Shown here one piece after another: positions 41,720-64,000 of a stretch of 64,000 nucleotides of DNA (positions are counted from its first letter, which is position 1; every line of letters starts with the position of its first letter). Source of the DNA: a virus (taxonomy: Duplodnaviria > Caudoviricetes); IMG/VR virus record IMGVR_UViG_3300034073_003276; one strand, 5' to 3'. Below the pieces are notes generated by a model, which had not been told where the DNA came from, searched no databases, and saw only the letters and a list, made by a program, of their open reading frames with translations. The position numbers and the translations under genes are program-made.

Positions 41720-41722
41720 TTC

Positions 41723-43297: not shown

Positions 43298-43317
43298 TTA
43301 TATTGATGTTTTTTTTA

Positions 43318-43325
43318 TATTTATA
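43318..43325 (-). promoter_or_regulatory. T4-type late promoter TATAAATA for g8
   Basis: Exact consensus between the g7 stop and the g8 start. Confidence 0.78.
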
Positions 43326-43330
43326 TGAGG

Positions 43331-46300: not shown

Positions 46301-49300
46301 CTTCATAAATATTGGATTTTCTTCATAATTTGCTTCAAAGTCAAGTTTATCAGATGATGGTGAATTAATACCAAAGTATTTGGAAATTCTTACAGATTGT
46401 CTCACTGTAGAATAATCTAAATCTGGAGGAATATTTACAACATCCAAATCTGTATAAAAACATTCATTGAACGAAATTATTTCAATATCTCCAGTAACAG
46501 AGGGATCTGGATAAAAACTAAGAATAATATTTGTTGAATCAATACTTGCTCCAAAAGTACCTATTCCACCCGTACTTCCAATAGACAAGAATGGATACTG
46601 TAGGGTAGAAACATTTGATCCATCATAAACAGTCATTACTTGATGTAAAGCACTAGTTTCTCCCAACCCAACACGAACTACAGATTTTATTGAGGTAAAC
46701 AGTGATTTGTCTAATGTAATTACACTTGTAGACCCTGAAGAAACATTATTATAATTTGATTCAAAAACAACTGTTCTCTCATTTCCATCTATTTGTCCTG
46801 GAAGTTTAAACCTATAGAAATCTCCACCCAATGCCGTGGTTCCAAACCCAACATTTTTAGATCTTACAGATATACTTTCAGACTCTGTATTTGTATAATT
46901 TAAAGATAAAATTCCACCACTTAATGAAGCGCCAAATGAACCTATAAATCCATAACTATCACCTCCCTCACCATCAAAATAATATTCAGTAATATAAGTG
47001 TCAGAACCATCATGTGACAGATAAATTTCGACATAGTTCATCTTAGAACTATCATTATTCATTACATGAATATTTGAATAAACAGAGGAGTATTTTGTTG
47101 AATCTAATTCAATAATTGTTGTTGTTATTCCACTAGTAACTACTTTATTTTGAGATATTAAATCTATACAATTTAAACTCTGCGTAGATCCAATGCCAGA
47201 AATAAATGTATCTTGTAATATCTTAATGTCAAAATCAGAGTTAAATGGATCTTCTGGTTCAAATCTCAAATAAAATACGCCTTCTTCATCAACATATCCA
47301 CTAATATTTGCCAATAACAAATCAGGGTCAAATACGGTAGATCCGTATCCAGTGGTTCCTGTAGTAAGGTCCCCCTTGTATAAATTAAAAATATTTTCAG
47401 AATCATTAATTGCAACTATTTCACTAAACTGTGCTTCATTATTTGATGTATTCTTTACTTGAACTAAAAATTTGTTATATCCATTGGAAGAATTAATTGC
47501 AAGTATATTGGATACGTCTTCTCTCTCATCATCACTACTGGAAAATTGAGAACTAATATCATCAATTTTCAAAACTCTATTAGTTCTAAGTAAAATATAT
47601 TTCGAAAGACGTGTATTTTCAAATTTTACAAATCTCGATCTATCTCCCGAAGTATCTACATCAAAGGCAAAATCAAAATTATTAATAGTGTCAACTCGAT
47701 TGTCTTCAACAATCATATTAATAATCGACAATGTAGATTCTGTATTTCCTACACCAGATTGTGCGCTTTGAGATAATTGAGTATCTGCAAAATTCTTTGT
47801 ACCACTAGTGTGTAGTAAATTATTAACTGGCGTTACTATCTCTTCCCAAGTTTTACTACTCTTTACCGTGTATGAAAGATTTTGATAGTAATCATTATCT
47901 GAAGTTACTTGTGAGTCATTGTTAAGTTTGCCAGTTTCCTCCCTCCATCCAAAATTTTGAAGATTAAAGTAGTCTATATTGTAAATTCCTTCAGTTGTGG
48001 AAACTACATCAACTGTCGCCTCACTCAAAGACTGTAATCCTCTTATTCTTTCATTTTGCGAAAGATTATATTTCCCAGATACTCTTACAATGTTTTCATC
48101 ACAAGAAGTAACAATTAAATCTCTAGACTGGAATCCTATTCCATTATCCGATTCTAAAGTCTCTCCAACGATAAATGGTAAAAACTTTTGAGTAACTTCA
48201 AACTCTGGATAATTTTTATAATTTGTAATAGATGCATAAGATTCTTGAATAGTTTTTGCTACTCCAGGATTAGTTGTTAATCCAGAAACACTAAACTCAA
48301 GTTTGGATGGATTTAATTCAAAATAATTTTCTATTGTAAAGAATCTATATCCATAGTCTTCAGAGTTGAATCCATCTCCTGAAGAATCTGCTTTTTCAAT
48401 TCCTTCAACAAATATTCTATCTCCAACTGCAAAAGGTGCAGTTGTAAATCCTAATACTGGTGTAGTTAAAATACAAGTAACTATTCCAGATGAAGAAGAT
48501 TCTACCTTGTCTATCGATACAGAATTAGAATTATTAATTGACCTAATTGTAACTGGTCTGATAGGTAAACCTTTAGGTTCTACTTCAATGTCTACTTCAC
48601 CAATAGAAGATCCTGTTAAAGTTGCCTTTAAGAATCCAGAGTTAATGAGTTCTCCAGTATCAGTGTTAACTAGAATTAAATCTGGAGCAGATGTGTAATT
48701 TTGTCCACCATTAAGGATAGTGATCGTATCAATAGTATTTGATGAAGAAATATAAGCTAATTGGGGGATGGTTGCTGTTGGTCTTAAAGTTTTATCTGAA
48801 GCGTATTCAAATCCCTCATTTATAATTCTACTTTGGGTTATCTTTCCAATACTGTCTGAGGATGGAATAACAAATGCCCCCTCACCAGTTGCGGAATCAG
48901 ATCCAGTAAAGCGAGGAAGTGACTTATATCCATATCCTCCAGAAATTAGATTAACTTGGTCAATTCCTCCAGAGATTGAAGTAGAATTTGAAGAATACTC
49001 AAGTATATCACATTCATCTTTTTGATAGTTTAAATTTTCTGGAGTATTTGATAAAGAAACGGTAAAAGTAGTGTCTCCGACACTAACTACAGTATAATTT
49101 CCATTATAAACACTATCAGTAAAAGACAATTCGGAATAGTTGACAACATCAGTATCTGCAGTACTGATATATCCAGACTTTTCTAAATTATAATAGAGTT
49201 TTTCTGGAACAGAATCAGTATAATTTAAAGTCAGTGACGCATTTGTAGATACTCCTACAGTTCCAACACCAGAGACTGATAACGAGGTAGTAGTTGCAAC

Positions 49301-52300
49301 TGAGACAAATTCTTTTGTGAAGTCTTTATCATAGTAAATTTTTAATTCATATCCATAAAGTGAAGAATCGGATAAATCAAATACTAAGTTATTATTTTTT
49401 ACAATTTGAATTTGTGGATTTACTAAACTAATCTCCTGTGTGCCAATTCCGGCAGTTACTAGGTTTACAAAAGATGGAGAAACACTAGAAACTTCTAAAT
49501 GAGTTTCAGATAATTTTATTGTATTATCGTCTACTTTATAAACATAATAAGTTCCAGTTTCTATACCAGATGGAATAGATTCTGATTGATATAGAATTTT
49601 ATCACCAGTTTTAAGTCCATGAGAATTTATTGTAATTTGATTAGACTCTGTACTAATTCCTAAAGAACTAAATCCGATAGGATTTACAATAATATTGTCA
49701 ATTAATGCACTACGTTTAACTCTTACGGCAGTTGATGTTCCTATACCTACCGATAAATCTGGATTTACATTTAAAGTTACAGTATCGCCAATTTTTAATT
49801 CATGAGATGTTGAAACAGAAACTACTGTGTTTATTTTATTAACATCTGCAGTGACTTGAGTAAAGTTTGATTCTATTGAATATTCATAGTTATCGTGTTG
49901 CGGATACCAAAGAGTATTTCTAAAAAATAGTCCATTTGTATTAGTTGTAAATCCAACACTAGTTACTATACCAATATAATCCTTAGATTTGTTAATTGTA
50001 TATAAAGTTTCACTGTCTCCACTTAAAATATTAAATGAAGCACTTGTAGAAGTATTTGATACTGATATTGGAAAGGCACCACTTGGTTTTCTAAAGATTA
50101 CTTGCTGTCCAGTTTTAAATGGGTGATTTGGTATAAAGATACTCTGAGTTGGTATAAATGTATTATATGATGTTATACCAATGTTGTAATTTACATTAAT
50201 TCCAGTACCAGAAGTAGTTCCAACTCCCACAGATTTTGTAGGATTGTAATAAACCTTATCATCAATCTTAGACTCAAAATAATCAGTAGATTTATTAACT
50301 GTGAACGAGTTTGGAAGAAAATATACTGGAGTTGTTTGGGTGTGTATTCCACCACTTGAATCTCTACGTACCTTTACGATACCAAAATTGTCATAAATGT
50401 TTAGAATGGAGAAGGTTTCCGCACCAATTTTGAAACTACTTCCAATAGAAACGGTTTCAGGTATTGAAGATAGATAAATGTCTGTAACTATTCCTGTTGA
50501 AGCATATGCTGGAATTTCTTTATCCAGTATTGTTGAATAAGTTGTAAGTCCTATTTTGTAAGATCCATTTAAATTAGAAACCTGTGTAGATAATCCGGAT
50601 ATATTAATATTATCTCCACTCAAAAACTCATGATATGGCAATACTTGGACTTTTACAGTATTGCCATTTTCCCATGTTATTACCGAATCTGTATAAGATA
50701 CAATGTTAGTATCAATTTGATTAATTTGTTTGCCTTTTACCTTAGATACTTTTGCATAAATTCCACCACCCTCTGTTCCACTTTCATCAAATAATATTTC
50801 GTCACCAACTTTATAATTAGACCCAGAATCAACTACTTGTAGTGAAGAAACACTACCAGAAGAAACTGACTCAATTAAAGTCTTTTGTTCTATGATTTCA
50901 TTAGATTCTACAATAAAGTCATTATCAGCATACTCATCATTTACCTTATACGGAAGAGTATTTCTAATTAGAGAAGAATTATTAAAATCAAACGATTGAT
51001 TTAATGAAATATTTTCTTCGATATATGGAGATCTGTATTCATTTCCAATAAAATATGGAAACTTGCCGACAGATTGATTATCATCATTATTTTCAACTGT
51101 GGCAAAATATGCATAAACACCTTCTGGAAAATCTTTAGTTTTTCCAAATCTACCATTATATCGGTCCAAGTCTCCACTATTGGTAAATACATAATCTTCA
51201 ATAAAGTATCCAACAGGGAAAATAGAAGTAGATGGGCGATTTTCAATAGTTGCTAGAGAATATCCAGGTTCTAATTTTTTAACATTTTCAGTATTATTTG
51301 GATCCGAATATCCATAAGACCCATAGATCGGATTTCCATCATATGCCCATCCAATAATGTCAGAATGTGTAGTATTATTACCAGAATCTTTTAGATTACT
51401 CTTTAAAGATTCAGAATATCCAACAACTGCATATTCTAGATTATTTTCTGTCTCAACTAATATTTCTGTTGCAGGGTCTCTATAATTTTCATTTTGAATC
51501 CCATACTTATATGAATTATTGAGTGTTAGGGATCTTATATTAGATTCAAAGATAGCATTCTTACCTGCAGGAACAGCACGAATCACTGTGTCTGTAATAC
51601 TATAACCTGCACCTGAGTTAACAACGATTACATCTATAATTTTATTATTAGATACTATAGGTCTAAGATTTGCACCAATACCACTACCAGATACAACTAA
51701 ATCTGGAGTGGAATAATAATCTTGTCCTCCATATAGGATAGTTACATCAACAATTCTACCATTTTCAATTAATGGTTTAAATTGTGACTCTTTTCCATTT
51801 TTAATTACAATTTGAGGTCTTTGGTGCTTGTTTAAAACTAATGAACCATAATCCGATCCTTGTTCATAAACATAAACTTGGTCTATTTCACCTCTAATTA
51901 TCGGAGTTGCAACAATAGATCCTTTGACTTGAGTACTTCCTAAACCAACAGAAGTATAATCAACTGATAAAACAATATCAGGATAACTAAAAATCTGATA
52001 TCCAGATCCGGTAGTTGAAAATTTTACATAGTGTTTTCTTTCATAATTAGAAGTATCTGTACCATCAACTCCAGCGTTGCAAAGTCTAAATTTATCAGAA
52101 TCTATTTTTAATACTTGATACCTATTTGCTGTAGATAAACCAGTTATACCTGTAGTTTGATAATCATAAGTTACAATTTCACCATCAGAAAAACCGTGAT
52201 TCTTAAATTCTAAAGTGTGATTATATGTAGAAATACCAACTGGTTTAACTCTAAGTTTTCTATTAGTATAATCACTTCCACTGTTAATAACTTTGATTCC

Positions 52301-55096: not shown

Positions 55097-55097
55097 A

Positions 55098-57053
55098 TTA
55101 TGACCTCGTTAAACTCCCGTTTGAATAACTTGAGCGATAAGAATTTTTTGTGAAGACAACACCAGAAATGTCCTCACCAGATGCAATAGTATCCTTTACC
55201 ATATTTATTTGACTTTTTGAAATGTCAAAAGAAACATACAAGTCTTTCAGACCAACAACATCATTTGACTCAGGATATGCTTGTATTTCAATAATATCAT
55301 TATCTCTTTCAGTTGATGTTATTGTAATGGTGTTAATAGTTATTTCACCTGTTTCATAATTAACAACTCCTGCAGATTGTACAATTACGAATGGTTGTAG
55401 AGAAACGTTTGATTGCGTTTCTATGCTAGTTCCCGTGGATGGTTTTACAATGGCAATTACACCTGTTTTTCCATCAGAATTAGGAACATCACTAAAATAT
55501 ACAGTATCTGATTCATTTAAAATCTTAAATCCAGTTGATTTAATATTATATCCATACTGATTTACATGGAATTGATTTCCGAAACATATTTCATATTGTG
55601 CCTGCTGATTCACAAGAGCCTTTAAGTCTCTTCTTACTCTAACTCTTGTTATATTTGAAGTAACAGCATTGTCGGTATTGTCTATAACTTGTAAAACTTT
55701 ACTATATTTAAATCTTCCACCAAACTTATTTAAATCTACAGACTCCGAATACTTTGTAAGAGAATTGTTTACTCTAGTTTTTAAGTCTGAAGAACTTGCA
55801 ACTTGACTTTCATTATAATAGATAAAAGACTCAATTTCAACATAAAGAATTTTCAGATCAATTATTTTTGTATTAATTCCAGAGACACTATATTGCTTTA
55901 GTTTTGCAAGTATATTTTCTTTGTCAAAATCTGAAACAAATGTGCCATTTTTTGGTTTTATACTGATTAAAACCGTTCCAAACTGTGGTGGAGTTAATTC
56001 TTCTCCGCCAATCACAGAAATTGACTCTGCATTTCCATATATTTTGGACTTAATAATAGTTTCATAATCACTTGCAGTTACTGCTCTATATTGAGATGCA
56101 TACAAACGAGGAGCGAAATAACGAATAGAATCTATTGTTTCAATATCAGATCCATTTTGAGATTTCTGATTAGTAGTAACTGTAATTGTATTCTGTGGTA
56201 TTACATTACCATCATCAGAATTCCTTAATGATCCCGCAAAAGAGAATGTTTCTACACCATTTCCATCCTTTCCACTAGTTATAATGTAGTTACTAGTAAT
56301 TATTGCGCCATTTTCTGGTTTTTGACCAAAAATTCCATCACCAAAAAGAAGTTGATATTTTTCGTCCTGTACTTCCTGAATTAAAAAGATTTGAGAATTT
56401 GAATTTACTTCAAAAATATTATCCACTAATGAGTATTTTATTCCTAATCCACTATCACTAGAACCCTTTACATAGACTCTAACTGTAGAAGTATCAATAA
56501 AAGAGTTGTCAAGTATAAACTTTTGGTCTAAAGATGCATTAACAGTAAACTTTTTGGTTAGAAAAGTTCCTTCTTTGATTATAATATTACTAAATGTTGC
56601 TACACCATTCACAACTGGAACTGTGATATTTTCTGGAGCAGAAAATACATAAGAAGTTCCCCTTACTGAACCAGTGCAGACAAGTCCTGCTTGTAGAGTT
56701 ACTGTTGGCGTATAAACAGGCGTATCGTCGCTTAAAAAACTACTTGGGGGTACATTTACCGTAAAAGATACTGTAGCACTTGCAGCGTTTCTAGAATATG
56801 GCACATAACCAATATTCCTAGCAAGAGAAACTACATTTTCTCTAACAGTTGCCGAATCCAAAAAGGATTCGTTTATCACCATATTCGAATTAAATGCCGT
56901 AATATATGTGTTATACGCTAGAGTATCAATTAGAACAGAGAAGTTAGAACCTTCAAAATCAAAATCCGTGAATGTTGAGTTAGCACGAAGATAATCTTTG
57001 ATTGAAGTTTTTATCTGGTCAAAATCTAGGTTGGTAAATTTAGTGAAAGGCAT
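55098..57053 (-). CDS. g6: baseplate wedge subunit gp6
   Basis: LDFDQIK.S..DYLR, FTDFDFEGSNFSVLID.LAYNTY, FLDSA.VRENVVS.A, QYRAVTA.DY. Confidence 0.96.
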   Translation of the reverse strand: MPFTKFTNLDFDQIKTSIKDYLRANSTFTDFDFEGSNFSVLIDTLAYNTYITAFNSNMVINESFLDSATVRENVVSLARNIGYVPYSRNAASATVSFTVNVPPSSFLSDDTPVYTPTVTLQAGLVCTGSVRGTSYVFSAPENITVPVVNGVATFSNIIIKEGTFLTKKFTVNASLDQKFILDNSFIDTSTVRVYVKGSSDSGLGIKYSLVDNIFEVNSNSQIFLIQEVQDEKYQLLFGDGIFGQKPENGAIITSNYIITSGKDGNGVETFSFAGSLRNSDDGNVIPQNTITVTTNQKSQNGSDIETIDSIRYFAPRLYASQYRAVTASDYETIIKSKIYGNAESISVIGGEELTPPQFGTVLISIKPKNGTFVSDFDKENILAKLKQYSVSGINTKIIDLKILYVEIESFIYYNESQVASSSDLKTRVNNSLTKYSESVDLNKFGGRFKYSKVLQVIDNTDNAVTSNITRVRVRRDLKALVNQQAQYEICFGNQFHVNQYGYNIKSTGFKILNESDTVYFSDVPNSDGKTGVIAIVKPSTGTSIETQSNVSLQPFVIVQSAGVVNYETGEITINTITITSTERDNDIIEIQAYPESNDVVGLKDLYVSFDISKSQINMVKDTIASGEDISGVVFTKNSYRSSYSNGSLTRS

Positions 57054-57054
57054 T

Positions 57055-57456
57055 TTATCTTGTTGCCTCTAATATGAATGAGAACTGTTGCGTTGGTAAT
57101 TCTTGTCCAATGATATCAAAAATAACAGTAACTTCAAATTCATTAGAGTCTGGTCTAGGTTCAACTTCTACATCAACACCAGACACTCTTGGCTCATAAT
57201 TTGAAATTGTGTTGATAATTTGGTCTCTTACAACTGATGCAGTTGCAAAATCTACAAATTCAAATAGACTTGAGCGAACATCAGATCCCAAACTAGGATT
57301 AAAAAATCTTTCGTTTGGGATAGTTTCTACAAGATTACGAATAGAACGAATAATTGCACTCTGATTTTTCAGAATTGGCAGATCTTTGGTCACAGGATGT
57401 GGATCAAAAGACAGACTAATATCCTTGAATGATCTAGATATTCGTGTTACTGCCAT
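57055..57456 (-). CDS. g25: baseplate wedge subunit gp25
   Basis: FKDISLSF..HPVTKD...AI.RSIRNLV.T..NERFFNP.LGS...YEPRV. Confidence 0.95.
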   Translation of the reverse strand: MAVTRISRSFKDISLSFDPHPVTKDLPILKNQSAIIRSIRNLVETIPNERFFNPSLGSDVRSSLFEFVDFATASVVRDQIINTISNYEPRVSGVDVEVEPRPDSNEFEVTVIFDIIGQELPTQQFSFILEATR

Positions 57457-57486
57457 TGGATAAGAAATTTCTTGGATTATTTATGT

Positions 57487-57729
57487 TTATTTCCACAAAG
57501 ATCCATATCCTGGCTCAGTTCCATACTCCCAATCATCATAATCTTCGTCATTGCGAATTTTTTCGTGCAATTCTTGTTGTTTTTTCAAGTTATGCTTAGG
57601 TGCCAGGTCATGCATAACCTCTTGAATCACTCTTTTTGGGGGCACATTATCATAATCGGTGATGAGATGAGTAGTTCCCCACATCTCTCTCATATAATTT
57701 GAGTCCCTATCGACGGGTAAATTAGACAT
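57487..57729 (-). CDS. hypothetical protein, 80 aa
   Basis: AGGAG RBS upstream; ORF precedes g25. Confidence 0.75.
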   Translation of the reverse strand: MSNLPVDRDSNYMREMWGTTHLITDYDNVPPKRVIQEVMHDLAPKHNLKKQQELHEKIRNDEDYDDWEYGTEPGYGSLWK

Positions 57730-57796
57730 TTTAGCTCCTGTTTTAATGAATAAAACAGAACTTTTATAAAGGAGGTTGCTATCTCCTTATTTCTAT

Positions 57797-58123
57797 TTAA
57801 CGATCGATTTCCCGAAGAGAGTAATTGTCAGAATTTAAGTATTTTAATATCTCTAAAGCGATTAATTTTGGATTTCCGTCTCCACAGGTGTAAACATCGA
57901 TTGCTAAACACCCATTTTCAGGCCAAGTATGGCAAGAAACATGACTTTCTGCAAGAGCAATCACAATTGTACACCCTTGAGGTATAAAACAATGTGAAAA
58001 AACATTCAAAATGGTCATTTTAGCACGTTTAATGCCATTGATCATTACATTTTGAAGCGATTCTACATCATTAATCGCTTCAAAATCAACATCATACACC
58101 TCTAAGAGTAGGTGTTTGCCCAT
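57797..58123 (-). CDS. speD: pyruvoyl-dependent S-adenosylmethionine decarboxylase proenzyme (SpeD/SpeH-like)
   Basis: MGKHLL, F.PQG.T, AE|SH autocleavage motif, HTWPE, DVYTCG; ATG at 58123 preferred. Confidence 0.92.
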   Translation of the reverse strand: MGKHLLLEVYDVDFEAINDVESLQNVMINGIKRAKMTILNVFSHCFIPQGCTIVIALAESHVSCHTWPENGCLAIDVYTCGDGNPKLIALEILKYLNSDNYSLREIDR

Positions 58124-58162
58124 TGAAAAGATTTCCAATTCAGTTGTACACAAAAAATGTAT

Positions 58163-58762
58163 TTATTTTACCCAAAAACCTTTTCTTTTATAGTCAACAT
58201 CATCAATATAAGTGCAATCTTGATAAATTTTATTACTATCTTCTTCCCAGACTGGAATTGCCACTGTATTTCCATATCTAAAATCAGGATTTCTACGAAA
58301 TTGTACTTCTATAATGCGCCCATCTATGAATTCGCAATTTATCCATTCATATTTTTTCTTTAAATTCTTTAAAATATCAGGAAATTCTATTTTTCTATTA
58401 ATTTTTTCCCATCGGTCCCACTTATAAATGGGATTCTCTTCATTTCTAACTCCTAATACTGTCATATCATGCTGTTGATTATGATAATCGACACTTAAAT
58501 GCTCACCCTTGAATATCTCACACCAAAATTCAGAGGGGTGTATGTTATCTGTAAACTTTTCTATCCATACTATACGAGCAAAACGACTCATCCCAAACAA
58601 ATTAAAAGATGGGCGAACAATATAAAAGTCGGGTTTAGGAACTGTAGTCCCTGCAGGACCACAAATATAACCTAAACGCCGACTTAGAAATAATTTATTA
58701 TATACCCACAAATCTTCAGGATGTATATGATTCCATTCATCATTACACTCTAGAAGATACAT
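58163..58762 (-). CDS. hypothetical protein, possibly a minimal ATP-grasp fold
   Basis: YIVRP..NL.G, EIFKGEHLSVDY, NCEFIDGRIIEVQFR resemble ATP-grasp motifs (KP, E.I.G.E.SVD, IE.N.R). Confidence 0.5.
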   Translation of the reverse strand: MYLLECNDEWNHIHPEDLWVYNKLFLSRRLGYICGPAGTTVPKPDFYIVRPSFNLFGMSRFARIVWIEKFTDNIHPSEFWCEIFKGEHLSVDYHNQQHDMTVLGVRNEENPIYKWDRWEKINRKIEFPDILKNLKKKYEWINCEFIDGRIIEVQFRRNPDFRYGNTVAIPVWEEDSNKIYQDCTYIDDVDYKRKGFWVK

Positions 58763-58891
58763 CTACTTAAACCCGTATTTTCTACCTGGTTTGAGTTTTC
58801 TCCTTTTCCGTGCTGCTGCCTTTTGGGCATTAGTGCGACAAGTGCCAGTTCTACGGTGCTTGCCTCCTGGTCCATGAGAACTCTTTTTCAT
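58763..58891 (-). CDS. very basic micro-protein, 42 aa (MKKSSHGPGGKHRRTGTCRTNAQKAAARKRRKLKPGRKYGFK); not in the ORF track
   Basis: ATGA overlap with the upstream stop; its stop abuts the next start. Confidence 0.6.
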   Translation of the reverse strand: MKKSSHGPGGKHRRTGTCRTNAQKAAARKRRKLKPGRKYGFK

Positions 58892-59034
58892 CCTTTACCT
58901 TGACCTCTATACTTCTTACGTGCTCCATTACGAGAAGACGAGGCATACTTAGTACCACCTCCATTGCCTTGACGAGACTTCTTAGGAGGTCCCGGAATAT
59001 AAGAACTATTCTTCAGTGATCCGCCTTTTGCCAT
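58888..59034 (-). CDS. very basic micro-protein, 48 aa (MAKGGSLKNSSYIPGPPKKSRQGNGGGTKYASSSRNGARKKYRGQGKG); not in the ORF track
   Basis: GGAG upstream; open frame; coupled to the next ORF. Confidence 0.7.
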   Translation of the reverse strand: MAKGGSLKNSSYIPGPPKKSRQGNGGGTKYASSSRNGARKKYRGQGKG

Positions 59035-59207
59035 AGTTTACTCTCCGTTAAAATTTCAGTTTCAATATCTTCAGGTCGTGGAGAACCTGTCTGATAGAAT
59101 TCTATTGACAAGTCCTCCATTACATTGAAATATTCTTCCTCTGTAAGTCCTGTATATATTCTACGACCCTTACATAGGATATTGTAAGTTTCGTTATCGT
59201 TAGTCAT
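59013..59207 (-). CDS. hypothetical protein, 64 aa (MTNDNETYNILCKGRRIY...)
   Basis: The ATG at 59207 follows the GT stop; the ORF-track 5' extension overlaps the GT gene. Confidence 0.7.
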   Translation of the reverse strand: MTNDNETYNILCKGRRIYTGLTEEEYFNVMEDLSIEFYQTGSPRPEDIETEILTESKLWQKADH

Positions 59208-59208
59208 A

Positions 59209-59967
59209 TCAAATAATCCTTGTTTTTTCGTGTCCAACGCGCACGCGAGGGTCGCACCAAATTTCAAATCCTGCTTCCTTTGCATCCAAACAGAATGATA
59301 CATCTTCTCCACACATATCTTGAACTTGACCAGATTCAAAGACTTGCATCTTAGGGGCAAACCAAGGATACTTGATTTCAGGATGCTCAAATACTCCATT
59401 CTTAATCAGAAGCCAACCGAATCCTGCATAGTCAACTGTAAATGGTTTCCGACGCTTAGAGATGCTTTCAACGGTTTCATGATTCATCACTCCACCATTA
59501 CCTCTGAAATCATCTTCATCCAACCAGTGTGCAACTGAGGTCGTATGACCATCTTCAGTCGCATACCAACCAGAAGCAATGTCTTTGTCCATTAAGACTA
59601 GTTGATAAAACTTTTCAGTATTAAAAACAATGTCAGAGTCAATCCATAGTTGCCAATCATATTTCAATTTGCCATCCCAGGGAATTTGGTCAGGTCCTCG
59701 CAGTACATTCGCACCTAAACATTTGCATCTTGCAAAGTTTACCATTGATGAATAGTCTTGCGAGATTTGAATGCTTGCTCCCGCCTGAACTAAGTCAAAA
59801 CAGAGTTGCACGAAATTCTTCAAGTATGTGTAAGAGACTCCTCTTCCAGGAAGACAAAAGACGACGGACTTACCACGCACCATCTCTTTTGCTAGATTAT
59901 AATCCCATTCTTGTGTAGTTTGTGAGGCAACGGGTGCCTTTGCTTTTACAGTGAATCCTTTTGCCAT
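59209..59967 (-). CDS. GT-A fold (GT2-like) glycosyltransferase
   Basis: VVFCLPG, LWIDSDIVF (DxD), GFGWLLI, MCGEDVSFC, RVGHEK. Confidence 0.78.
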   Translation of the reverse strand: MAKGFTVKAKAPVASQTTQEWDYNLAKEMVRGKSVVFCLPGRGVSYTYLKNFVQLCFDLVQAGASIQISQDYSSMVNFARCKCLGANVLRGPDQIPWDGKLKYDWQLWIDSDIVFNTEKFYQLVLMDKDIASGWYATEDGHTTSVAHWLDEDDFRGNGGVMNHETVESISKRRKPFTVDYAGFGWLLIKNGVFEHPEIKYPWFAPKMQVFESGQVQDMCGEDVSFCLDAKEAGFEIWCDPRVRVGHEKTRII

Positions 59968-59989
59968 GAGATAAGTTGTTTACTTCAGT

Positions 59990-60018
59990 ATCATACAGTA
60001 TTATGTATAGAGTGTCAA
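59990..60018 (-). promoter_or_regulatory. near-consensus sigma70 promoter for the GT operon
   Basis: TTGACA-17 nt (ending TG)-TATGAT. Confidence 0.8.
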
Positions 60019-60191
60019 TCGACTTCCCTTTCGGTTAAGACTACTTCGTCCCCCTCAATCTTAAAGGATATTTCAGTGTCTTCATACCATGAGAGTTCAT
60101 TCATGACTTGCTCTGGGATTGTAATGTAATACTCCCCACTAATTGGATCGACCTCTATGGACTCGAAAATATCTCCGGAATTTTTTTTCAT
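60015..60191 (-). CDS. AbrB/MazE/SpoVT-like small protein, 58 aa
   Basis: GEYYITIPEQVMNELSWYEDTEISFKIEGDEVVL matches the swapped-hairpin pattern; ATG at 60191. Confidence 0.62.
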   Translation of the reverse strand: MKKNSGDIFESIEVDPISGEYYITIPEQVMNELSWYEDTEISFKIEGDEVVLTEREVD

Positions 60192-60401
60192 TTCCTCTAA
60201 ACCTTTTTTCGTTTTTATATAGGGAAAAAAATTTTTATAATCAGTGTGATATATAGATGCCTTTCGTAACACTTTGTAGGTTAGGGGGACCCATCGATTT
60301 ATGAACGGGGGGTAACCTTATAACACGCCGCCCCGCGACGCGGGCAACGGGCGGGGGCGACTGCCAAACACGCACGAATGACTGCCGCCCACGAATATGA
60401 G

Positions 60402-60716
60402 TCAGAAGCGGCAGGCGAGCGGCGAATGACCCACCCGCTCCTGCAGACGGTCACGGGCAGCGGCGATACGGTCGGCGCGATGCTGCTGCTTAGCACGGGC
60501 GATGGCACCGTCAAGGTCGGAGACCATCTGCCGCCCCAGACCCGTCACGCGGGTGATGGTCAGACCCTTACCAGCACCAACGGCATGAGAAGCAGCGGCA
60601 GAGTCTCCGCCACGAACGGCACCGACTGCAGCGCCGCGACCGTGCTGAGAATTGCGGGAGAGGGTTTCACCCTTACGGGGACCCTGGCGGCGGAGACGGG
60701 TGATGGTGACGGTCAT
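60402..60716 (-). CDS. hypothetical early protein, 104 aa
   Basis: Preceded by cassette leader TGCTACAGTAACCAAGCAACCGAAACCAACCG-ATG. Confidence 0.6.
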   Translation of the reverse strand: MTVTITRLRRQGPRKGETLSRNSQHGRGAAVGAVRGGDSAAASHAVGAGKGLTITRVTGLGRQMVSDLDGAIARAKQQHRADRIAAARDRLQERVGHSPLACRF

Positions 60717-60767
60717 CGGTTGGTTTCGGTTGCTTGGTTACTGTAGCACGAATGGGGGGGAGACCCC

Positions 60768-60977
60768 TCACCCCTGCTGACTGACCCACCCGCTGATGGG
60801 GCAGCGGTGAGTGCCACGGTGTGCCTCAGAATAGGCGGCGGCGATGGTGGCAGTGGGCACACCCCAGTGCACGAACTGAGAGGGGCGACCGTCCGCATTC
60901 TTGGCATTGTCAGAGGCGGAGACCCACACGGTCTGACGGTCAGAGAGGCGGGTTGCTTGAGAGAGGGGGAAACGCAT
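60768..60977 (-). CDS. hypothetical early protein, 69 aa
   Basis: Preceded by the TGTAGAAT cassette at 60984-61011. Confidence 0.6.
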   Translation of the reverse strand: MRFPLSQATRLSDRQTVWVSASDNAKNADGRPSQFVHWGVPTATIAAAYSEAHRGTHRCPISGWVSQQG

Positions 60978-61045
60978 CGGTCGTCTGTCGGTTGCTTGAG
61001 AATTCTACAGGATGGAGGGGAGGGGGTCAACCCTCCCCGTAGGGG

Positions 61046-61210
61046 TCACCAGAGCAGGTCGGCAATTGCTTCACGGCGCTGCTGGCGGGATACCAGTTCC
61101 TTGAGGATTGCCCGCTGCTCCTTGGCGGTGGGGTTTCCTTCCCACAGCCACTCCTCCAGTTGGAAGGAGGTCAGGTCGTCGAAGGCGGTGGCGATGGTTC
61201 CGTCCAGCAT
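61046..61210 (-). CDS. hypothetical early protein, 54 aa (MLDGTIATAF...)
   Basis: The ATG at 61210 lies just downstream of the TGTAGAAT element near 61236-61243. Confidence 0.6.
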   Translation of the reverse strand: MLDGTIATAFDDLTSFQLEEWLWEGNPTAKEQRAILKELVSRQQRREAIADLLW

Positions 61211-61260
61211 GAGGTCGGTTGCGGTTTGCTTTGGAATTCTACAGGGTCGGGGTGCCAGGG

Positions 61261-61443
61261 TCAATACCCCAGCCAGACCAGAAACTCCCCAGCATCGACC
61301 CCACCGAAGGCAGAGGTCGTTCCGTAGTCGGTGCGGAAGTCATCCCACAGACCATGCTGCTTGGCAGCGTGTGCCGCTTCGATCCAGTAGATGGTGCCGT
61401 TCTCAGGGTTGGTGATTTCAGCGATGAGGTCGGGGAAGGTCAT
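61261..61443 (-). CDS. hypothetical early protein, 60 aa
   Basis: Directly follows the cassette at 61450-61510. Confidence 0.62.
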   Translation of the reverse strand: MTFPDLIAEITNPENGTIYWIEAAHAAKQHGLWDDFRTDYGTTSAFGGVDAGEFLVWLGY

Positions 61444-61513
61444 CAGGTCTCTGTCGGTTGCTTGAGAATTCTACAGGCAGCAGGGGGCATCGCTGCCCCC
61501 CTTGTGTGCCACC

Positions 61514-61711
61514 TCAGAGTTTGGCAAGGAGGGCGTTGGCGATCTTATCAGCGGCACCCTGCAGGTTGTCGCGGACAATCAGGCGGAGCATCTCAGCGCC
61601 TTCAGGGGTGGCGTGCATCTGCCGAATCATGCTAGGGGTGAAGCAGTCCCAGGTGATCACGCCAGCAGTCTGCAGGAGTTGGGCTTCAGTGTTGGTGATG
61701 GTGTGGGTCAT
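61514..61711 (-). CDS. hypothetical early protein, 65 aa (MTHTITNTEAQ...)
   Basis: ATG at 61711 after the leader GCAACCGACAGAGGACCG. Confidence 0.6.
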   Translation of the reverse strand: MTHTITNTEAQLLQTAGVITWDCFTPSMIRQMHATPEGAEMLRLIVRDNLQGAADKIANALLAKL

Positions 61712-61784
61712 CGGTCCTCTGTCGGTTGCGGTCCCCCTAATATTAGACCCCAGGGGAGGGTCTGCTCCCCCAGGGTGTGCAGTT

Positions 61785-61952
61785 TCAGAATTGAACTTCC
61801 TGCAGGGTCGGGGCGCTGATGGCAGCATAATGGGCAGCGGCGTCAGCGATGTTCTCCTGCTCAATGTCAGAGGTCAGGGTCTCCAGAATCTGGAGGATGC
61901 TGTTGCCGTCGTTGCCAGTGCGGAGCAGGGAGAGTGCCAGGTCGCGGGTCAT
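61785..61952 (-). CDS. hypothetical early protein, 55 aa (MTRDLALSLLRTG...)
   Basis: ATG at 61952; fits the cassette spacing. Confidence 0.58.
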   Translation of the reverse strand: MTRDLALSLLRTGNDGNSILQILETLTSDIEQENIADAAAHYAAISAPTLQEVQF

Positions 61953-62011
61953 CAGAGTTGAAAGGTAAAGGGTTGGCGGAGTCTTTAGGGGCGCTGCCAT
62001 TCCCATGGGGG

Positions 62012-62173
62012 TCAGCGTTCCAGTTGTGCCAGGGAGGAGGGGGCAATGTGAGAGGGCGACCCGCAGGAGCGATAGAAGTCTACCATACGGTCTGCTTCCT
62101 CTTTACTGGTGAACCACTGGGAGCGCCACTCGCAGTGGTTGTAGGGGGTCTGGTAACGGACTTCGAAGCGCAT
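62012..62173 (-). CDS. hypothetical early protein, 53 aa (MRFEVRYQTPYN...)
   Basis: ATG at 62173 after the TGCTACAAT cassette (62182-62209). Confidence 0.65.
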   Translation of the reverse strand: MRFEVRYQTPYNHCEWRSQWFTSKEEADRMVDFYRSCGSPSHIAPSSLAQLER

Positions 62174-62181
62174 GGGGTGTC

Positions 62182-62458
62182 TTGCGTTGTGAGAGTATTG
62201 TAGCAGGTCAGCGGCGGGCAGCGGCCAGCAACAGGTCCAGCAGGACAACTGCCACAACCGCCTTCCAAAATCCCAGGGCGGTGATTCCAAACCACCCCAG
62301 CACCAGCACCAGGAGCCACGCCTTAAGGGCAACGACGCCAGCGACGCCAACGATCAGGATACCTGCCAGAGCCACCAGCTGCGGGGTGCTGAGGTCATCA
62401 ATCCAGGGGAAACGCTTGCTCATGGGTGGGTTGCGTTGTGAGAGTATTGTAGCAGGTC
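62182..62458. repeat. 28-nt perfect direct repeat TTGCGTTGTGAGAGTATTGTAGCAGGTC (copies 62182-62209 and 62431-62458)
   Basis: Identical copies read directly; each contains the extended -10 TGCTACAAT on the minus strand. Confidence 0.9.
62208..62423 (-). CDS. small membrane protein, 71 aa, two predicted TM segments
   Basis: MSKRFPWIDDLSTPQLVALAGILIVGVAGVVALKAWLLVLVLGWFGITALGFWKAVVAVVLLDLLLAAARR. Confidence 0.62.
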   Translation of the reverse strand: MSKRFPWIDDLSTPQLVALAGILIVGVAGVVALKAWLLVLVLGWFGITALGFWKAVVAVVLLDLLLAAARR

Positions 62459-62463
62459 GGGGG

Positions 62464-62658
62464 TCAGTTGGCGAACCATGCCTCATGGGCAAGGTCGGAT
62501 GCCAGTTCCTCCAGGTTGTCTTCGGTCAGTTTGGAACCGTAGAATTCCAGGATCTCAGGGTCCAAGCGATCCAGGTCGCATCCGTAGAGGTCAACTGCCT
62601 GACGCTCTGCCAGTGCCAGCAGGTCATCGTAGAGGCAGAGCAGGCGGTCTTCGGTCAT
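62464..62658 (-). CDS. acidic hypothetical early protein, 64 aa
   Basis: Follows the cassette TGTAGGAT...CCCG-ATG. Confidence 0.62.
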   Translation of the reverse strand: MTEDRLLCLYDDLLALAERQAVDLYGCDLDRLDPEILEFYGSKLTEDNLEELASDLAHEAWFAN

Positions 62659-62725
62659 CGGGTCGTTTGCTGTTGAGAGTATCCTACAGGGTCAGAGGGG
62701 GGTCGCTGCCCCCCTTGTGGACGGT

Positions 62726-62986
62726 TCAGAAATCGAACACGTCACCGTTGATTTCGGGGCGGTTGACCTTAGGGTCTGCCCACTTCACACCGTCAGGGGT
62801 TTCGGTGCTGCCACAAGCATAGAACAGGTCCAACAGTTCTTCATAGCAGCAGACTTCGTGCTCTTGAATGTAGTCTTGAATGCTTTCGTCATTCTCAATC
62901 CAGAGCACAACATTCCAGGTTTCGTAGTTAGTCCAACCGTTATAGGTGCGGTCGGTCAGGTTGGTCTGGTAGGTTGCGGTTGCCAT
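62726..62986 (-). CDS. hypothetical early protein, 86 aa, with YNGWTNYETWNV motif
   Basis: ATG at 62986 after the TATACT cassette; the motif is recalled from other phage small proteins. Confidence 0.65.
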   Translation of the reverse strand: MATATYQTNLTDRTYNGWTNYETWNVVLWIENDESIQDYIQEHEVCCYEELLDLFYACGSTETPDGVKWADPKVNRPEINGDVFDF

Positions 62987-63032
62987 TGGGTTGTCTGTGG
63001 TTGACTGAATCAGTATAGAGGCAGGGAGGGGG

Positions 63033-63191
63033 TCACCAGCGCCCTTGTGTGTCACTTGCCCAACCGTCACGCCAGGCAGCGCGGGCATCATAATCCTCGG
63101 CGCTCATCAGGTCATCATGCTCCCGCTCATCGTCGCCGTAGCGATCGTGGATGCCGTAGGAGTCGCCGTAGGCAAAGGAGGTCGTGATCAT
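63033..63191 (-). CDS. acidic hypothetical early protein, 52 aa (MITTSFAYGDSYGIHDRYGDDERE...); not in the ORF track
   Basis: ATG at 63191 after the TAGAAT cassette; open to the TGA at 63033. Confidence 0.5.
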   Translation of the reverse strand: MITTSFAYGDSYGIHDRYGDDEREHDDLMSAEDYDARAAWRDGWASDTQGRW

Positions 63192-63267
63192 CGGGTTGTT
63201 TGAACTGAGGTCATTCTAAGGGCAGGAGGGGCAGAAGGGGGGTGCCGAGTGGACACCCCGCCGATTG

Positions 63268-63909
63268 TCACATTGCCTCAGGAAGAAAATGATAATACTT
63301 TTGTGCCTTATGTTTTACACCGTAAAGAATATCAAGGCAGAGCAATTCATTCAGACAAACATTCAAGTTAGCATAACTGTCATTCTTTCCACTACCAGCA
63401 CGCCAACCACTGTTAGGATTAAAGAAACGATCGCAATTGACCAGTGCCGCAGCATATTCAGTCAGTTGATTATCATCACCCATCACATATTTGATGGACC
63501 ATACCAGCGGAGACTTCTTACCGATAGAGTTACCATCCTCATCTTTAAGGGCGCTGATTTTATTGCCAGTTGCAAAACTTGCTTTCATGCTATCAGTGCC
63601 TGCAATGAGTTTGAATTCAACTTTGTACTCAACTCCATCGACAATGAAGATATAATCATATCCATCTTCACCGACTTGCTTACCATTAACTCCCATTTCT
63701 TTCATCACTTCTTTGATGCAATAATTCACCAGATTCTGAAGAAGTTTTGTAAGAGTTTGGTTGATTTGCTTATCATCAACAAAAAGATCTTTCAGGGGAA
63801 TGTAGATACCCCAAATGCCAAGTTTCAGGCGCTCATTAACTTTAACAATTGCCTGAGCAGAGATAGTCTGCAGCAGGGGGGAGAGAGTGTGATGAAATTC
63901 GCGGGTCAT
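63268..63909 (-). CDS. putative PD-(D/E)xK (restriction endonuclease-like) nuclease, 213 aa
   Basis: GEDGYDYIFIVDGVEYKVEFKL fits D-x(10-14)-E-x-K; lower GC than the flanking cassettes; has its own promoter cassette. Confidence 0.55.
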   Translation of the reverse strand: MTREFHHTLSPLLQTISAQAIVKVNERLKLGIWGIYIPLKDLFVDDKQINQTLTKLLQNLVNYCIKEVMKEMGVNGKQVGEDGYDYIFIVDGVEYKVEFKLIAGTDSMKASFATGNKISALKDEDGNSIGKKSPLVWSIKYVMGDDNQLTEYAAALVNCDRFFNPNSGWRAGSGKNDSYANLNVCLNELLCLDILYGVKHKAQKYYHFLPEAM

Positions 63910-64000
63910 CTTAATTCTTTGGTGAGGGGGGTGCTTTGCCCCCCGTTGAAACTACTATAAGGCAACTCAGGACCCCTGCTAGGGGGTGTGTGTAGGTTGT

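What the first reader, a model, noticed from the sequence alone, without database searches (positions are those of the whole stretch)
60400..64000. GC-rich array of single-gene cassettes, each with box + stem-loop + extended -10 + SD-less leader
Seen: GC rises abruptly near 60300 (estimated about 60% versus roughly 30-35% in the baseplate genes). About 12 small minus-strand genes of 52-213 aa follow, nearly each preceded by the same architecture: an upstream GTCCAC/GTGGCACAC/GTGACAC/CTGCACAC box; a G/C-run hairpin (GGGGGCA-GCGA-TGCCCCC at about 61483-61500, GGGGGG-CAGCGA-CCCCCC at about 62697-62714, GGGGTGTC-CACTC-GGCACCCC at about 63239-63259); a -10 (TGTAGAAT, TGCTACAAT, TGTAGGAT, TATACT, TAGAAT); and a C/A-rich leader (CAAGCAACCGACAGA...CCG-ATG) with no Shine-Dalgarno. 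Established: T4-type phages have promoter-early-stem-loop (PeSL) cassettes that mediate modular shuffling. Inference: this is a cyanophage-type equivalent, a recombinogenic library of host-takeover micro-genes.
Basis: partly seen in the sequence, partly recalled or inferred. Interest (0 to 1): 0.75.

Follow-up and report, generated by a model that had tools for sequence, protein, structure and literature searches.

The report
Shuffled early-gene cassette array in cyanophage
A freshwater T4-like cyanophage carries a GC-rich run of tiny genes, each with its own host-type promoter, and related phages have gained, lost and reordered these genes at the promoter linkers, as in the PeSL cassettes of phage T4's relatives.

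Summary
The window comes from a relative of Synechococcus phage S-SRM01. At about 60250, GC jumps from 30-38% to 60-64%. Twelve small minus-strand genes (52-213 aa) follow. Ten have a -10 box (TAnnnT; TG-extended in seven of the window's ten) 21-28 nt before the ATG and a C/A-rich leader. Only 1 of the 12 genes has a Shine-Dalgarno core. Seven are also preceded by a G-run/C-run hairpin and five by a TGGCACA/TGTCCAC-type box.

A profile of the promoter-leader hits nothing else convincingly in the 64 kb. In 784 kb of related viral contigs it hits 134 times, always on the array strand.

The PeSL-like reading is largely supported. About 75 related contigs keep the downstream backbone but vary the cassette content and order. 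85% of homology breakpoints lie within -75..+14 of a cassette ATG. Three clean indels, of g10, g12 and g5, have their junctions inside repeated linker sequence. The same cassettes occur in the isolates S-PM2 and S-SZBM1.

Transcription starts, termination, mini-circles and gene function remain untested.

One result is unexplained. The GC step is conserved in 54 contigs. In 51 distinct loci it forms a ramp from 41% to 58% that ends abruptly at the backbone.

Verdict: a new variant of a known kind.

The parts
63268..63909 (-). g1, 213 aa, 40% GC; restriction-endonuclease-like lead
   Evidence: ORF. phrog_11812, function unknown. Nearest language-model clusters are type II restriction endonucleases at 0.91-0.95; this is a lead only.
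63910..64000 (-). Upstream region of g1: TATAGT at 63954-63959, hairpin at 63926-63944 inside a 44-nt leader; cut by the window end
63192..63267 (-). Linker before g2: hairpin 63239-63259 (contains GTGTCCAC at 63249-63256), -10 TAGAAT 63213-63218, 21-nt leader
63033..63191 (-). g2, 52 aa, no family match
62987..63055 (-). Linker before g3: box GTGACACAC 63047-63055 (inside the end of g2), -10 TATACT 63012-63017
62726..62986 (-). g3, 86 aa, DUF7249 / phrog_871; homologue in S-PM2
   Evidence: Pfam E=1.3e-14, PHROG, tblastn against L009
62659..62725 (-). Linker before g4: box CGTCCACA 62716-62723, hairpin 62697-62714, TG-extended -10 TAGGAT 62681-62686. About 90% identical over 59 nt to a linker in phage S-SZBM1
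62464..62658 (-). g4, 64 aa, no family match
62208..62463 (-). g5 cassette: 71-aa predicted membrane protein with its TGCTACAAT promoter. It is bracketed by 28-nt repeats and is precisely absent in one natural variant
   Evidence: Repeat family D1. A contig in run X5 joins 62181 to 62431, skipping 249 nt, with 28 nt shared and 250 nt on the shorter side. g5 is present in run X6.
62012..62207 (-). g6, 53 aa, with its TGCTACAAT promoter (62197-62202)
61785..61952 (-). g7, 55 aa; no promoter motif, probably read through from g6
61514..61784 (-). g8 cassette: box CTGCACAC 61775-61782, hairpin 61753-61770, TAATAT 61740-61745, then a 65-aa gene. Absent in L003/L005. 78% aa identity to an unannotated frame in S-PM2
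61261..61513 (-). g9 cassette: box GTGGCACAC 61504-61512, hairpin 61483-61500, TGTAGAAT, then a 60-aa gene. The g9 family was the search query; relatives were confirmed on 136 IMG/VR stretches
61046..61260 (-). g10 cassette: TTGACC-17-TAGAAT promoter, 54-aa gene. Precisely absent in L005, which has a chimeric leader at the junction
60768..61045 (-). g11 cassette: hairpin 61017-61038 whose loop carries a TTGACC -35, TGTAGAAT, 69-aa gene
60402..60767 (-). g12 cassette: hairpin 60755-60769, ATTCGTG 60747-60753, TGCTACAGT, 104-aa gene at 67% GC. Absent in L006, which is 99% identical on both sides
60192..60401 (-). Array/backbone junction: two further ATTCGTG copies (60390-60396, 60373-60379), GC hairpin 60326-60359, then AT-rich DNA before the 58-aa SpoVT/AbrB-like gene. 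Aligns with S-SRM01 from about 60286 downstream
60015..60191 (-). First backbone gene, 58 aa, weak SpoVT/AbrB (MazE) match; has a GAGG Shine-Dalgarno. Present in 58 related loci
   Evidence: PF04014 E=0.0024, below the curated cutoff; phrog_661; family table

Best explanation
This is the downstream 3.6 kb of a hyperplastic early-gene region of a T4-like cyanomyovirus. Each small gene is a self-contained expression unit. Its linker holds a host-RNA-polymerase promoter, which is a -10 TAnnnT with a TG extension in roughly two thirds of cassettes and a TTGACC -35 in only about one in six. The promoter is followed by a 14-18 nt C/A-rich, G-poor leader that is probably translated without a Shine-Dalgarno. 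In about a quarter of cassettes a G-run/C-run hairpin lies over the -35 position and could end or stabilise the upstream transcript. A box (TGGCACA / TGTCCAC type) sits at a fixed position just upstream of that hairpin.

Unrelated genes share near-identical linkers. The phage's own recombination machinery can therefore cross over between linkers, which deletes, inserts, replaces or reorders whole genes without breaking their expression. This is the logic of the PeSL cassettes of T4-type coliphages and vibriophages.

Shown here: the anatomy, its restriction to this region and strand, its conservation in relatives, the variable cassette content, and junctions inside linker repeats. Inferred: promoter activity and early timing, SD-independent translation, terminator function, and homologous crossover as the cause rather than merely the location of the breakpoints.
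For: Motif restriction: a profile of the ten promoter-leaders hits only those ten sites at E<0.01 in the 64-kb window, all on the minus strand.

Conservation: in 80 loci chosen by the g9 protein rather than by the motif (784 kb), the profile gives 134 hits, all on the array strand. All 120 full-length hits end at an ATG.

Positional architecture in 167 distinct cassettes:
- -10 at -32..-27 from the ATG
- hairpin 3' end at -45..-36 (43 of 167 cassettes, against 1 of 164 coding controls)
- box at -70..-61 (40 of 167, against 2 of 164)

Backbone versus array: the backbone AbrB-like/p252/p64/p48 is conserved, while the array varies in content and order. g9 has more than 15 different upstream neighbours.

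Breakpoints: 399 of 467 distinct homology endpoints fall within -75..+14 of a cassette ATG.

Clean events:
- L005 lacks the g10 ORF and has a chimeric leader at the junction.
- L006, 99% identical, lacks g12 between ATTCGTG repeats.
- A 1176-nt contig in an independent metagenome lacks g5 exactly between the 28-nt repeats.

Promoter swapping: near-identical g9 proteins sit behind different promoter-leader alleles.

Isolates: the same cassettes occur in S-PM2 and S-SZBM1.

Literature: cyanomyoviruses lack alt, modA, modB, motA and asiA, so early transcription is thought to use unmodified host polymerase (PMC3152331). The PeSL mechanism is described in PMC2839356 and PMC4122927.
Against: - There are no transcript data. 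No RNA run could be laid, so start sites and timing are untested.
- The hairpins lack the U-tract of classical intrinsic terminators, although S-SRM01's equivalents have T-runs. Folding of whole linkers is not better than shuffles.
- Breakpoints would concentrate between genes under any recombination mechanism, because events inside genes are selected against.
- The junction homology is short in some cases (7 nt for g12, 2 nt for g8).
- Most relatives are short-read metagenome assemblies. Repeats of 26-57 nt can cause chimeric joins, so some orders may be artefacts. Several orders do recur in contigs from different samples.
- Many joints have short sides (<31 nt) and are weak.
Confidence: 0.75

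Rival explanations
1. This is an ordinary early region. The linkers look alike only because every gene needs the same promoter and leader, through purifying or convergent selection. Indels arise by illegitimate recombination anywhere, and only those that fall between genes survive. On this view the linkers are not the agents of shuffling.
For: The breakpoint concentration in intergenic DNA is also expected under selection alone. Some junctions share only 2-7 nt. The promoter and leader constraints are real.
Against: Junction overlaps of 28 and about 57 nt lie inside repeats. Exact 26-35-nt promoter-leader copies stand in front of unrelated genes, which is more than promoter function requires. 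Identical g9 proteins sit behind swapped promoter alleles.
Confidence: 0.15
2. This is a site-specific cassette system of the integron kind. The fixed box plus the G/C palindrome would be a recombination site cut or bound by a dedicated enzyme, for example one of the HNH endonucleases embedded in relatives' arrays.
For: The box is held at -70..-61 and the palindrome directly follows it. The g8 indel junction lies at the box. HNH genes sit inside or beside the arrays of S-SRM01, L074 and L007.
Against: No recombinase family is found among the 12 array genes or the two flanking genes. Only about a quarter of cassettes carry the box or hairpin, yet cassettes without them also move (g5, g10). Breakpoints spread over the whole linker rather than clustering at one site. 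Each cassette has its own promoter, unlike integron cassettes.
Confidence: 0.07
3. The GC-rich block is foreign DNA: a recent one-off transfer from the host or a GC-rich phage, or an assembly chimera.
For: There is an abrupt 25-point GC step and a reversed GC skew. Second codon positions are also GC-shifted.
Against: The same step at the same junction is seen in 54 contigs (array 55% against backbone 36%). Four runs of the source study hold 98-100% of the stretch and 12 studies hold parts of it. The block is part of the lineage's standard architecture and also occurs in cultured isolates.
Confidence: 0.03

Closest known systems
PeSL (promoter-early stem-loop) cassettes of T4-type phages RB49/phi1, T4/PST and KVP40/nt-1 (Arbiol 2010, PMC2839356; Comeau 2014, PMC4122927)
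   Same: Short composite linkers (a stem-loop plus a host-type promoter) lie between small, mostly orphan genes in a hyperplastic region. Indels and replacements between relatives have crossovers inside the linker, including between the -10 and the ATG. The units are transcriptionally self-contained.
   Different: - No sequence relation to the T4-type elements.
- The -35 is mostly absent, and the hairpin occupies that position.
- No Shine-Dalgarno; the leader is a C/A-rich stretch instead.
- An extra box sits at a fixed position upstream.
- The hairpins lack U-tracts.
- The region is 20-25 GC points richer than the genome and shows a ramp.
- Promoter and terminator activity and mini-circles were shown experimentally for PeSLs but not here.
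- Neither PeSL paper mentions cyanophages.
The S-PM2 'ORFanage' and neighbouring small-gene region (Puxty 2015, PMC4503421; Clokie 2010, PMC2984593)
   Same: It occupies the same genomic neighbourhood, next to the baseplate genes. It holds homologues of g3 and g8. Box, hairpin, -10 and leader cassettes stand before p064, p068, p073, p074 and two unannotated frames. Puxty et al. noted freshwater-metagenome relatives of S-PM2 orphans.
   Different: Puxty et al. looked for PeSLs in the deleted part of the ORFanage, found few, and judged the mechanism unlikely. The dense cassettes lie just outside that deletion. The present phage lineage shows them at high density and with direct indel evidence.
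Integron gene cassettes
   Same: An array of small, exchangeable, single-gene units in one orientation next to a conserved boundary.
   Different: Here each unit has its own promoter, and no integrase or attC-type site was found. Exchange looks like general homologous or microhomology recombination.

Membership tests
PeSL-type regulatory cassette (functional class) | Host sigma-70-type early promoter in the linker: -10 element | tested here: met
   TAnnnT lies 21-28 nt before the ATG in 10 of 12 window genes. In 167 distinct cassettes the hexamers are TACAAT 71, TAGAAT 34, TATACT 30 and TATAAT 10. This is sequence evidence only; activity was not tested.
PeSL-type regulatory cassette (functional class) | Host sigma-70-type early promoter: -35 element | tested here: not met
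   A -35 close to consensus (mostly TTGACC) at 16-18 nt spacing is present in only 30 of 167 cassettes. A TG extension is present in 106 of 167. The hairpin usually occupies the -35 position.
PeSL-type regulatory cassette (functional class) | Stem-loop immediately upstream of the promoter | tested here: met
   Present before 7 of 12 window genes, with dG -10 to -17 kcal/mol. Perfect stems of 6 bp or more number 6 against 1.4 expected, 5 of them intergenic. Found in 43 of 167 cassettes against 1 of 164 coding controls. It is an optional module, not a universal one.
PeSL-type regulatory cassette (functional class) | The stem-loop terminates transcription | not testable with these tools
   No U-tract follows the stems in this window, and the terminator scan finds none of them. 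The equivalent stems in S-SRM01 have T-runs.
PeSL-type regulatory cassette (functional class) | Clustered in a hyperplastic region among small, mostly orphan genes | tested here: met
   Array content is variable against a conserved backbone in about 75 loci. 10 of 12 genes lack a convincing family match. g9 and g6 are absent from 50,697 GenBank phage records.
PeSL-type regulatory cassette (functional class) | Indels or replacements between close relatives with the crossover inside the linker | tested here: met
   g10 (L005, chimeric leader), g12 (L006, ATTCGTG repeat) and g5 (X5 contig, 28-nt repeat). 85% of homology endpoints lie in -75..+14.
PeSL-type regulatory cassette (functional class) | Excised mini-circles | not testable with these tools
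   Only assembled contigs were available. The 'goes back' joints are equally explained by permuted orders seen in relatives, such as g12 before g9.
PeSL-type regulatory cassette (functional class) | Shine-Dalgarno within the cassette | tested here: not met
   A GGAG/GAGG/AGGA core is present in 1 of 12 window array genes. Across relatives it is 8 of 137 array cassettes against 69 of 220 backbone genes.
Integron-like cassette array | Adjacent site-specific recombinase and attC-type sites; promoterless cassettes | tested here: not met
   No recombinase family is found in the 12 array genes or the 2 flanking genes. Each cassette has its own promoter. The rest of the genome was not searched.

The most novel reading that the evidence does not exclude
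The array is a polarised, compositionally distinct immediate-early compartment shared by freshwater, estuarine and marine cyanomyoviruses. GC climbs steadily along the direction of transcription, from about 41% at 8 kb upstream to about 58%, and collapses to 36% at a conserved junction. This pattern is maintained across the lineage despite constant gene turnover. Two causes are conceivable. One is selection for host-matched, G-poor, unstructured mRNAs that can be translated by a GC-rich host before the phage's own tRNAs are made. The other is GC-biased repair at a recombination hotspot at the early/late boundary. On this reading the portable linkers form a common 'socket' that lets unrelated phage genera trade these genes.
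Probability: 0.3. Interest if true: 0.8.

Novelty: new variant of a known kind. Interest (0 to 1): 0.62.

Why it matters
PeSL-mediated shuffling has been shown only for phages of enterobacteria and vibrios. The one paper I found that looked for it in a cyanophage judged it unlikely.

Here the same logic appears in the family that includes abundant marine and freshwater cyanophages, built from different parts. That offers a concrete mechanism for how cyanophage 'dark matter' genes turn over and move between freshwater and marine lineages.

It also defines a compact promoter-leader that could be tested as an early-expression signal in Synechococcus. It can be used to find early genes in metagenomes and to correct strand errors in GC-rich regions; one likely example is S-PM2p067.

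The conserved GC ramp is a new puzzle. It bears on how AT-rich phages express their first genes in GC-rich hosts.

Tried and rejected
- Rfam (E up to 1) on 59800-64000 gave three sub-threshold chance-level hits and no family.
- Folding each whole linker against shuffles gave z of -0.5 to -1.75, which is not significant. Only the count and placement of the perfect hairpins are significant.
- The generic terminator scan finds none of the linker hairpins, because they lack a T-run.
- RNA evidence: no RNA holder is listed for this stretch. The single read-laying run used DNA contigs only, so starts, ends and expression could not be examined.
- Parts without cover, and joints with sides under 31 nt (g8, g4, g4+g5, g2-g5, the 1048-nt and 711-nt skips), are weak and are not used as primary evidence.
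- The 'goes back' joints are ambiguous between circles, duplications and permuted orders.
- g9 function: the AlphaFold model (pLDDT 80.6, four helices) has no significant match in PDB or AFDB clusters, only weak EF-hand-like rows at E>0.1.
- tblastn of g9 and g6 against 50,697 phage records found no match.
- The 17-base pattern scan of metagenomes returned many chance hits. Only the loci confirmed by tblastn were used.
- The Syn9 transcriptome paper (Doron 2016) is not held. Three other cyanophage expression papers gave no early-promoter description, although supplied the S-PM2d250 upstream sequence noted under Noticed in passing.
- The idea that new cassettes enter at the boundary and lose GC with age was rejected as a simple model. 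The boundary-proximal cassettes (g9, g11) are the most widely conserved, not the newest.

Full report
**What the window is.** Bases 40000-60000 match Synechococcus phage S-SRM01 (Kyanoviridae, freshwater, 241 kb) at 78% identity over the baseplate genes. No whole genome is held for the window. The stretch is present at 98-100% of sampled words in four runs of one 'subsurface metagenome' study, and in part in 11 other studies from estuary, freshwater, marine and sediment samples.

**Checking the observation.** GC in 500-nt windows is 0.30-0.41 up to 60249. It then reads 0.60-0.64 until about 62700, and 0.40-0.43 over the last gene. The rest of the 64 kb lies at 0.30-0.45.

On the minus strand there are twelve ATG genes of 213, 52, 86, 64, 71, 53, 55, 65, 60, 54, 69 and 104 aa, with GC3 of 0.64-0.78 for g2-g12. 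Comparison with homologues shows a clear excess of third-position changes in five of them. For g9 the changes by codon position are 37, 20 and 127; for g6 they are 30, 24 and 127. These are therefore real genes in this frame, and the long plus-strand ORFs are compositional artefacts.

Ten of the twelve genes have a -10 hexamer 21-28 nt before the ATG: TAGAAT four times, TACAAT twice, and TAGGAT, TATACT, TAATAT and TACAGT once each. Seven of these have a TG extension. The leaders are 41% C, 35% A, 15% G and 9% T.

Other elements of the linkers:
- A 26-nt promoter-leader is repeated exactly, where none is expected by chance.
- Seven linkers carry a G-run/loop/C-run hairpin with dG of -10 to -17 kcal/mol.
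- Perfect stems of 6 bp or more number 6 against 1.36 +/- 1.1 in shuffles, and five of the six lie in the 22% of the array that is intergenic.
- Five linkers carry a box of the TGGCACA / TGTCCAC / TGCACAC / TGACACA type. Its density on this strand is about seven times that of the rest of the window.
- A Shine-Dalgarno core is present in 1 of 12 array genes, against 14 of 41 long ORFs elsewhere.

'Nearly each' is true only for the -10 plus leader.

**Is it more than chance or composition?** A profile built from the ten promoter-leaders hits only those ten places at E<0.01 in the whole window, all on the minus strand and all ending at the ATG.

I then collected relatives without using the motif, by searching IMG/VR with the g9 protein. 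This gave 136 confirmed stretches, of which 80 loci (784 kb) were kept. The profile gives 134 hits at E<0.01 in these loci. All lie on the array strand, and all 120 full-length hits end in ATG.

In 167 distinct cassettes the parts sit at fixed places relative to the ATG:
- the -10 at -32..-27
- the hairpin's 3' end at -45..-36 (43 of 167, against 1 of 164 coding controls)
- the box at -70..-61 (40 of 167, against 2 of 164)
- a TTGACC-type -35 in only 30 of 167

The consensus around the -10 is CCCC-TGACC-(y)TG-(c)-TAcAAT-tCTCTCA. The TGA is often the stop codon of the preceding gene. With a start about 7 nt after the hexamer, the leader would be only 14-18 nt long.

**Surroundings.** Downstream, the array ends at a 210-nt junction (60192-60401). 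This holds two more copies of the ATTCGTG that precedes g12's -10, a strong GC hairpin, and then AT-rich DNA. Next comes a 58-aa gene with a GAGG ribosome site and a weak SpoVT/AbrB match. From here the backbone is conserved: the AbrB-like gene is in 58 loci, p252 in 72 and p48 in 62.

Upstream, the window cuts the array. Relatives continue for 6-8 kb in total, sometimes with an AT-rich HNH endonuclease gene on the opposite strand.

**Comparative evidence for shuffling.** Gene-order strings for about 75 loci show an invariant backbone and a highly variable array. Across these loci the arrays draw on dozens of distinct gene families. g9 has more than 15 different upstream neighbours, and orders are permuted, for example g12-g9, g10-g9 and g11-g9. 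Several orders recur in contigs from different samples, which argues against assembly artefacts as the main source.

Endpoints of alignments at 88% identity or more between arrays fall within -75..+14 of a cassette ATG in 399 of 467 distinct cases. They are spread across the whole linker.

Three events are clean:
1. L005 lacks only the g10 ORF. Its junction is a chimeric leader that joins g10's promoter to g11's ATG, and the two alignments overlap by 57 nt.
2. L006 is 99% identical on both sides and lacks the 350-nt g12 cassette between two ATTCGTG copies.
3. In an independent 2024 marine metagenome, a 1176-nt contig joins 62181 to 62431. It omits g5 exactly between the 28-nt promoter repeats, with 250 nt of flank on the shorter side. 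Another study's contig contains g5.

Further evidence comes from the linkers themselves. L003 lacks g8, and its linker is a mosaic: g7-side box, a different hairpin, and g9's promoter. L003 also carries an unrelated gene in place of g4+g5. Near-identical g9 proteins stand behind at least four different promoter-leader alleles.

**The same cassettes in cultured phages.** S-SZBM1 (host CB0101) has a linker about 90% identical over 59 nt to the one before g4, and it has other box, hairpin, -10 and leader units.

S-PM2, the marine model phage, has such units before p064, p068 (annotated anti-restriction), p073 and p074. The last two share an identical 35-nt promoter-leader. S-PM2 also has them before unannotated homologues of g3 and g8.

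S-SRM01 has the same layout at the syntenic place, with T-rich tails after its hairpins and a smaller GC rise.

**Mechanism.** The best reading is a set of self-contained early expression units joined by quasi-repeated linkers that double as recombination joints. Host-polymerase dependence fits the absence of alt, mod, motA and asiA in cyanomyoviruses (PMC3152331). From my own knowledge, it also fits the prevalence of -10-dominated promoters in cyanobacteria.

Translation without a Shine-Dalgarno from short, G-poor leaders is inferred. Whether the hairpins terminate transcription is uncertain, because they lack U-tracts here. They could instead stabilise 3' ends, insulate units, or bind a regulator across the -35 position. 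The role of the box is unknown.

**Comparison with the known.** PeSLs are defined in PMC2839356 and PMC4122927. They share the composite stem-loop/promoter linker, the hyperplastic setting, the orphan genes and the crossovers inside the linker.

Four things differ. The -35 and the Shine-Dalgarno are largely missing. The box is extra. The sequence is unrelated. The biochemical proofs (promoter and terminator assays, mini-circles) are absent.

Neither PeSL paper mentions cyanophages. Puxty et al. (PMC4503421) considered PeSLs for the S-PM2 ORFanage and judged them unlikely because of their low density there. The dense cassettes lie in the adjoining stretch. The S-SRM01 paper does not mention promoters or hyperplastic regions. 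I therefore rate this as a new variant of a known kind.

**The unexplained part.** The GC step is not a chimera or a recent transfer. In 54 contigs the 3.3 kb before the AbrB-like gene averages 55% GC (43-61%), against 36% for the backbone.

In 51 distinct loci aligned on that gene, GC rises smoothly from 0.41 at -8 kb to 0.58 at -1 kb and then drops to 0.36 (examples). Second codon positions and non-coding linkers are GC-shifted too, and the sense strand is C-rich. This argues against pure synonymous codon selection.

Host-matched early translation, biased repair at a recombination hotspot, and exchange with a GC-rich gene pool all remain open.

**Caveats.** There are no transcript data. Most relatives are short-read assemblies, and linker repeats can mislead assemblers. 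Selection alone would also enrich intergenic breakpoints.

The scan's other first-stage notes on this genome raised the 28-nt repeat pair around g5 and the restriction-endonuclease-like g1. I tested the former (confirmed) and partly tested the latter.

Noticed in passing
window 52000-64000, and loci L165, L181, L188, L205, L020: GC ramp along the array in the direction of transcription. In 51 distinct loci GC rises from about 41% at 8 kb upstream to about 58%, then drops abruptly to 36% at the conserved junction. Cause unknown.
   Followed up: partly
window 60192-60401: Junction with three ATTCGTG copies, counting the one in g12's promoter at 60747-60753, and a GC hairpin at 60326-60359. It aligns with S-SRM01 from about 60286 downstream. 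The extra copies look like scars of deleted promoters. An AT-rich TATAAAAA stretch precedes the AbrB-like gene and may be a late-type promoter.
   Followed up: partly
window 58163-58762: The 199-aa ORF is missing from the 99%-identical contig L006 (a 590-nt indel) and is present in only 23 of the related loci. It is therefore a variable gene inside the backbone.
   Followed up: no
window 63268-63909: g1 (213 aa, 40% GC) has type II restriction endonucleases as its nearest language-model clusters (0.91-0.95). It contains a D...E-x-K-like stretch. It has no Pfam match.
   Followed up: partly
L009 4845-5302 (S-PM2 21.6-21.9 kb): S-PM2p067 is annotated on the strand opposite to two tandem homologues of g8 (78% and 45% aa identity) that have their own cassette promoters. 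This is probably a strand mis-call in GC-rich DNA.
   Followed up: partly
L001 31825-32262; L074 (reverse-complemented) about 500-950; L007 6124-6606: AT-rich HNH homing-endonuclease genes are embedded in or beside the GC-rich arrays of relatives. Two of them are on the strand opposite to the array (L001, L074). They could supply double-strand breaks that drive recombination.
   Followed up: no
window 61953-62011; L007 11349-11412: The region before g7 lacks the promoter motif. It shares a conserved non-coding stretch (ATGGGAATGGCAGCGCCC ... AAAGACTCCGCCAA) with a distant relative in which the frame is closed.
   Followed up: no
S-PM2d250 upstream (PMC10976474): The sequence proposed there as a candidate Pho box, CCTATACTGATCTCAGTTC, equals the -10 plus leader of this cassette family. 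The same 17-mer stands before cassettes in L007.
   Followed up: no
window 61261-61443: g9 is a strongly conserved 60-aa protein (15 invariant residues in 33 sequences). It is predicted as a four-helix fold with only weak EF-hand-like similarity. It is abundant in metagenomes but absent from all 50,697 GenBank phage records.
   Followed up: partly
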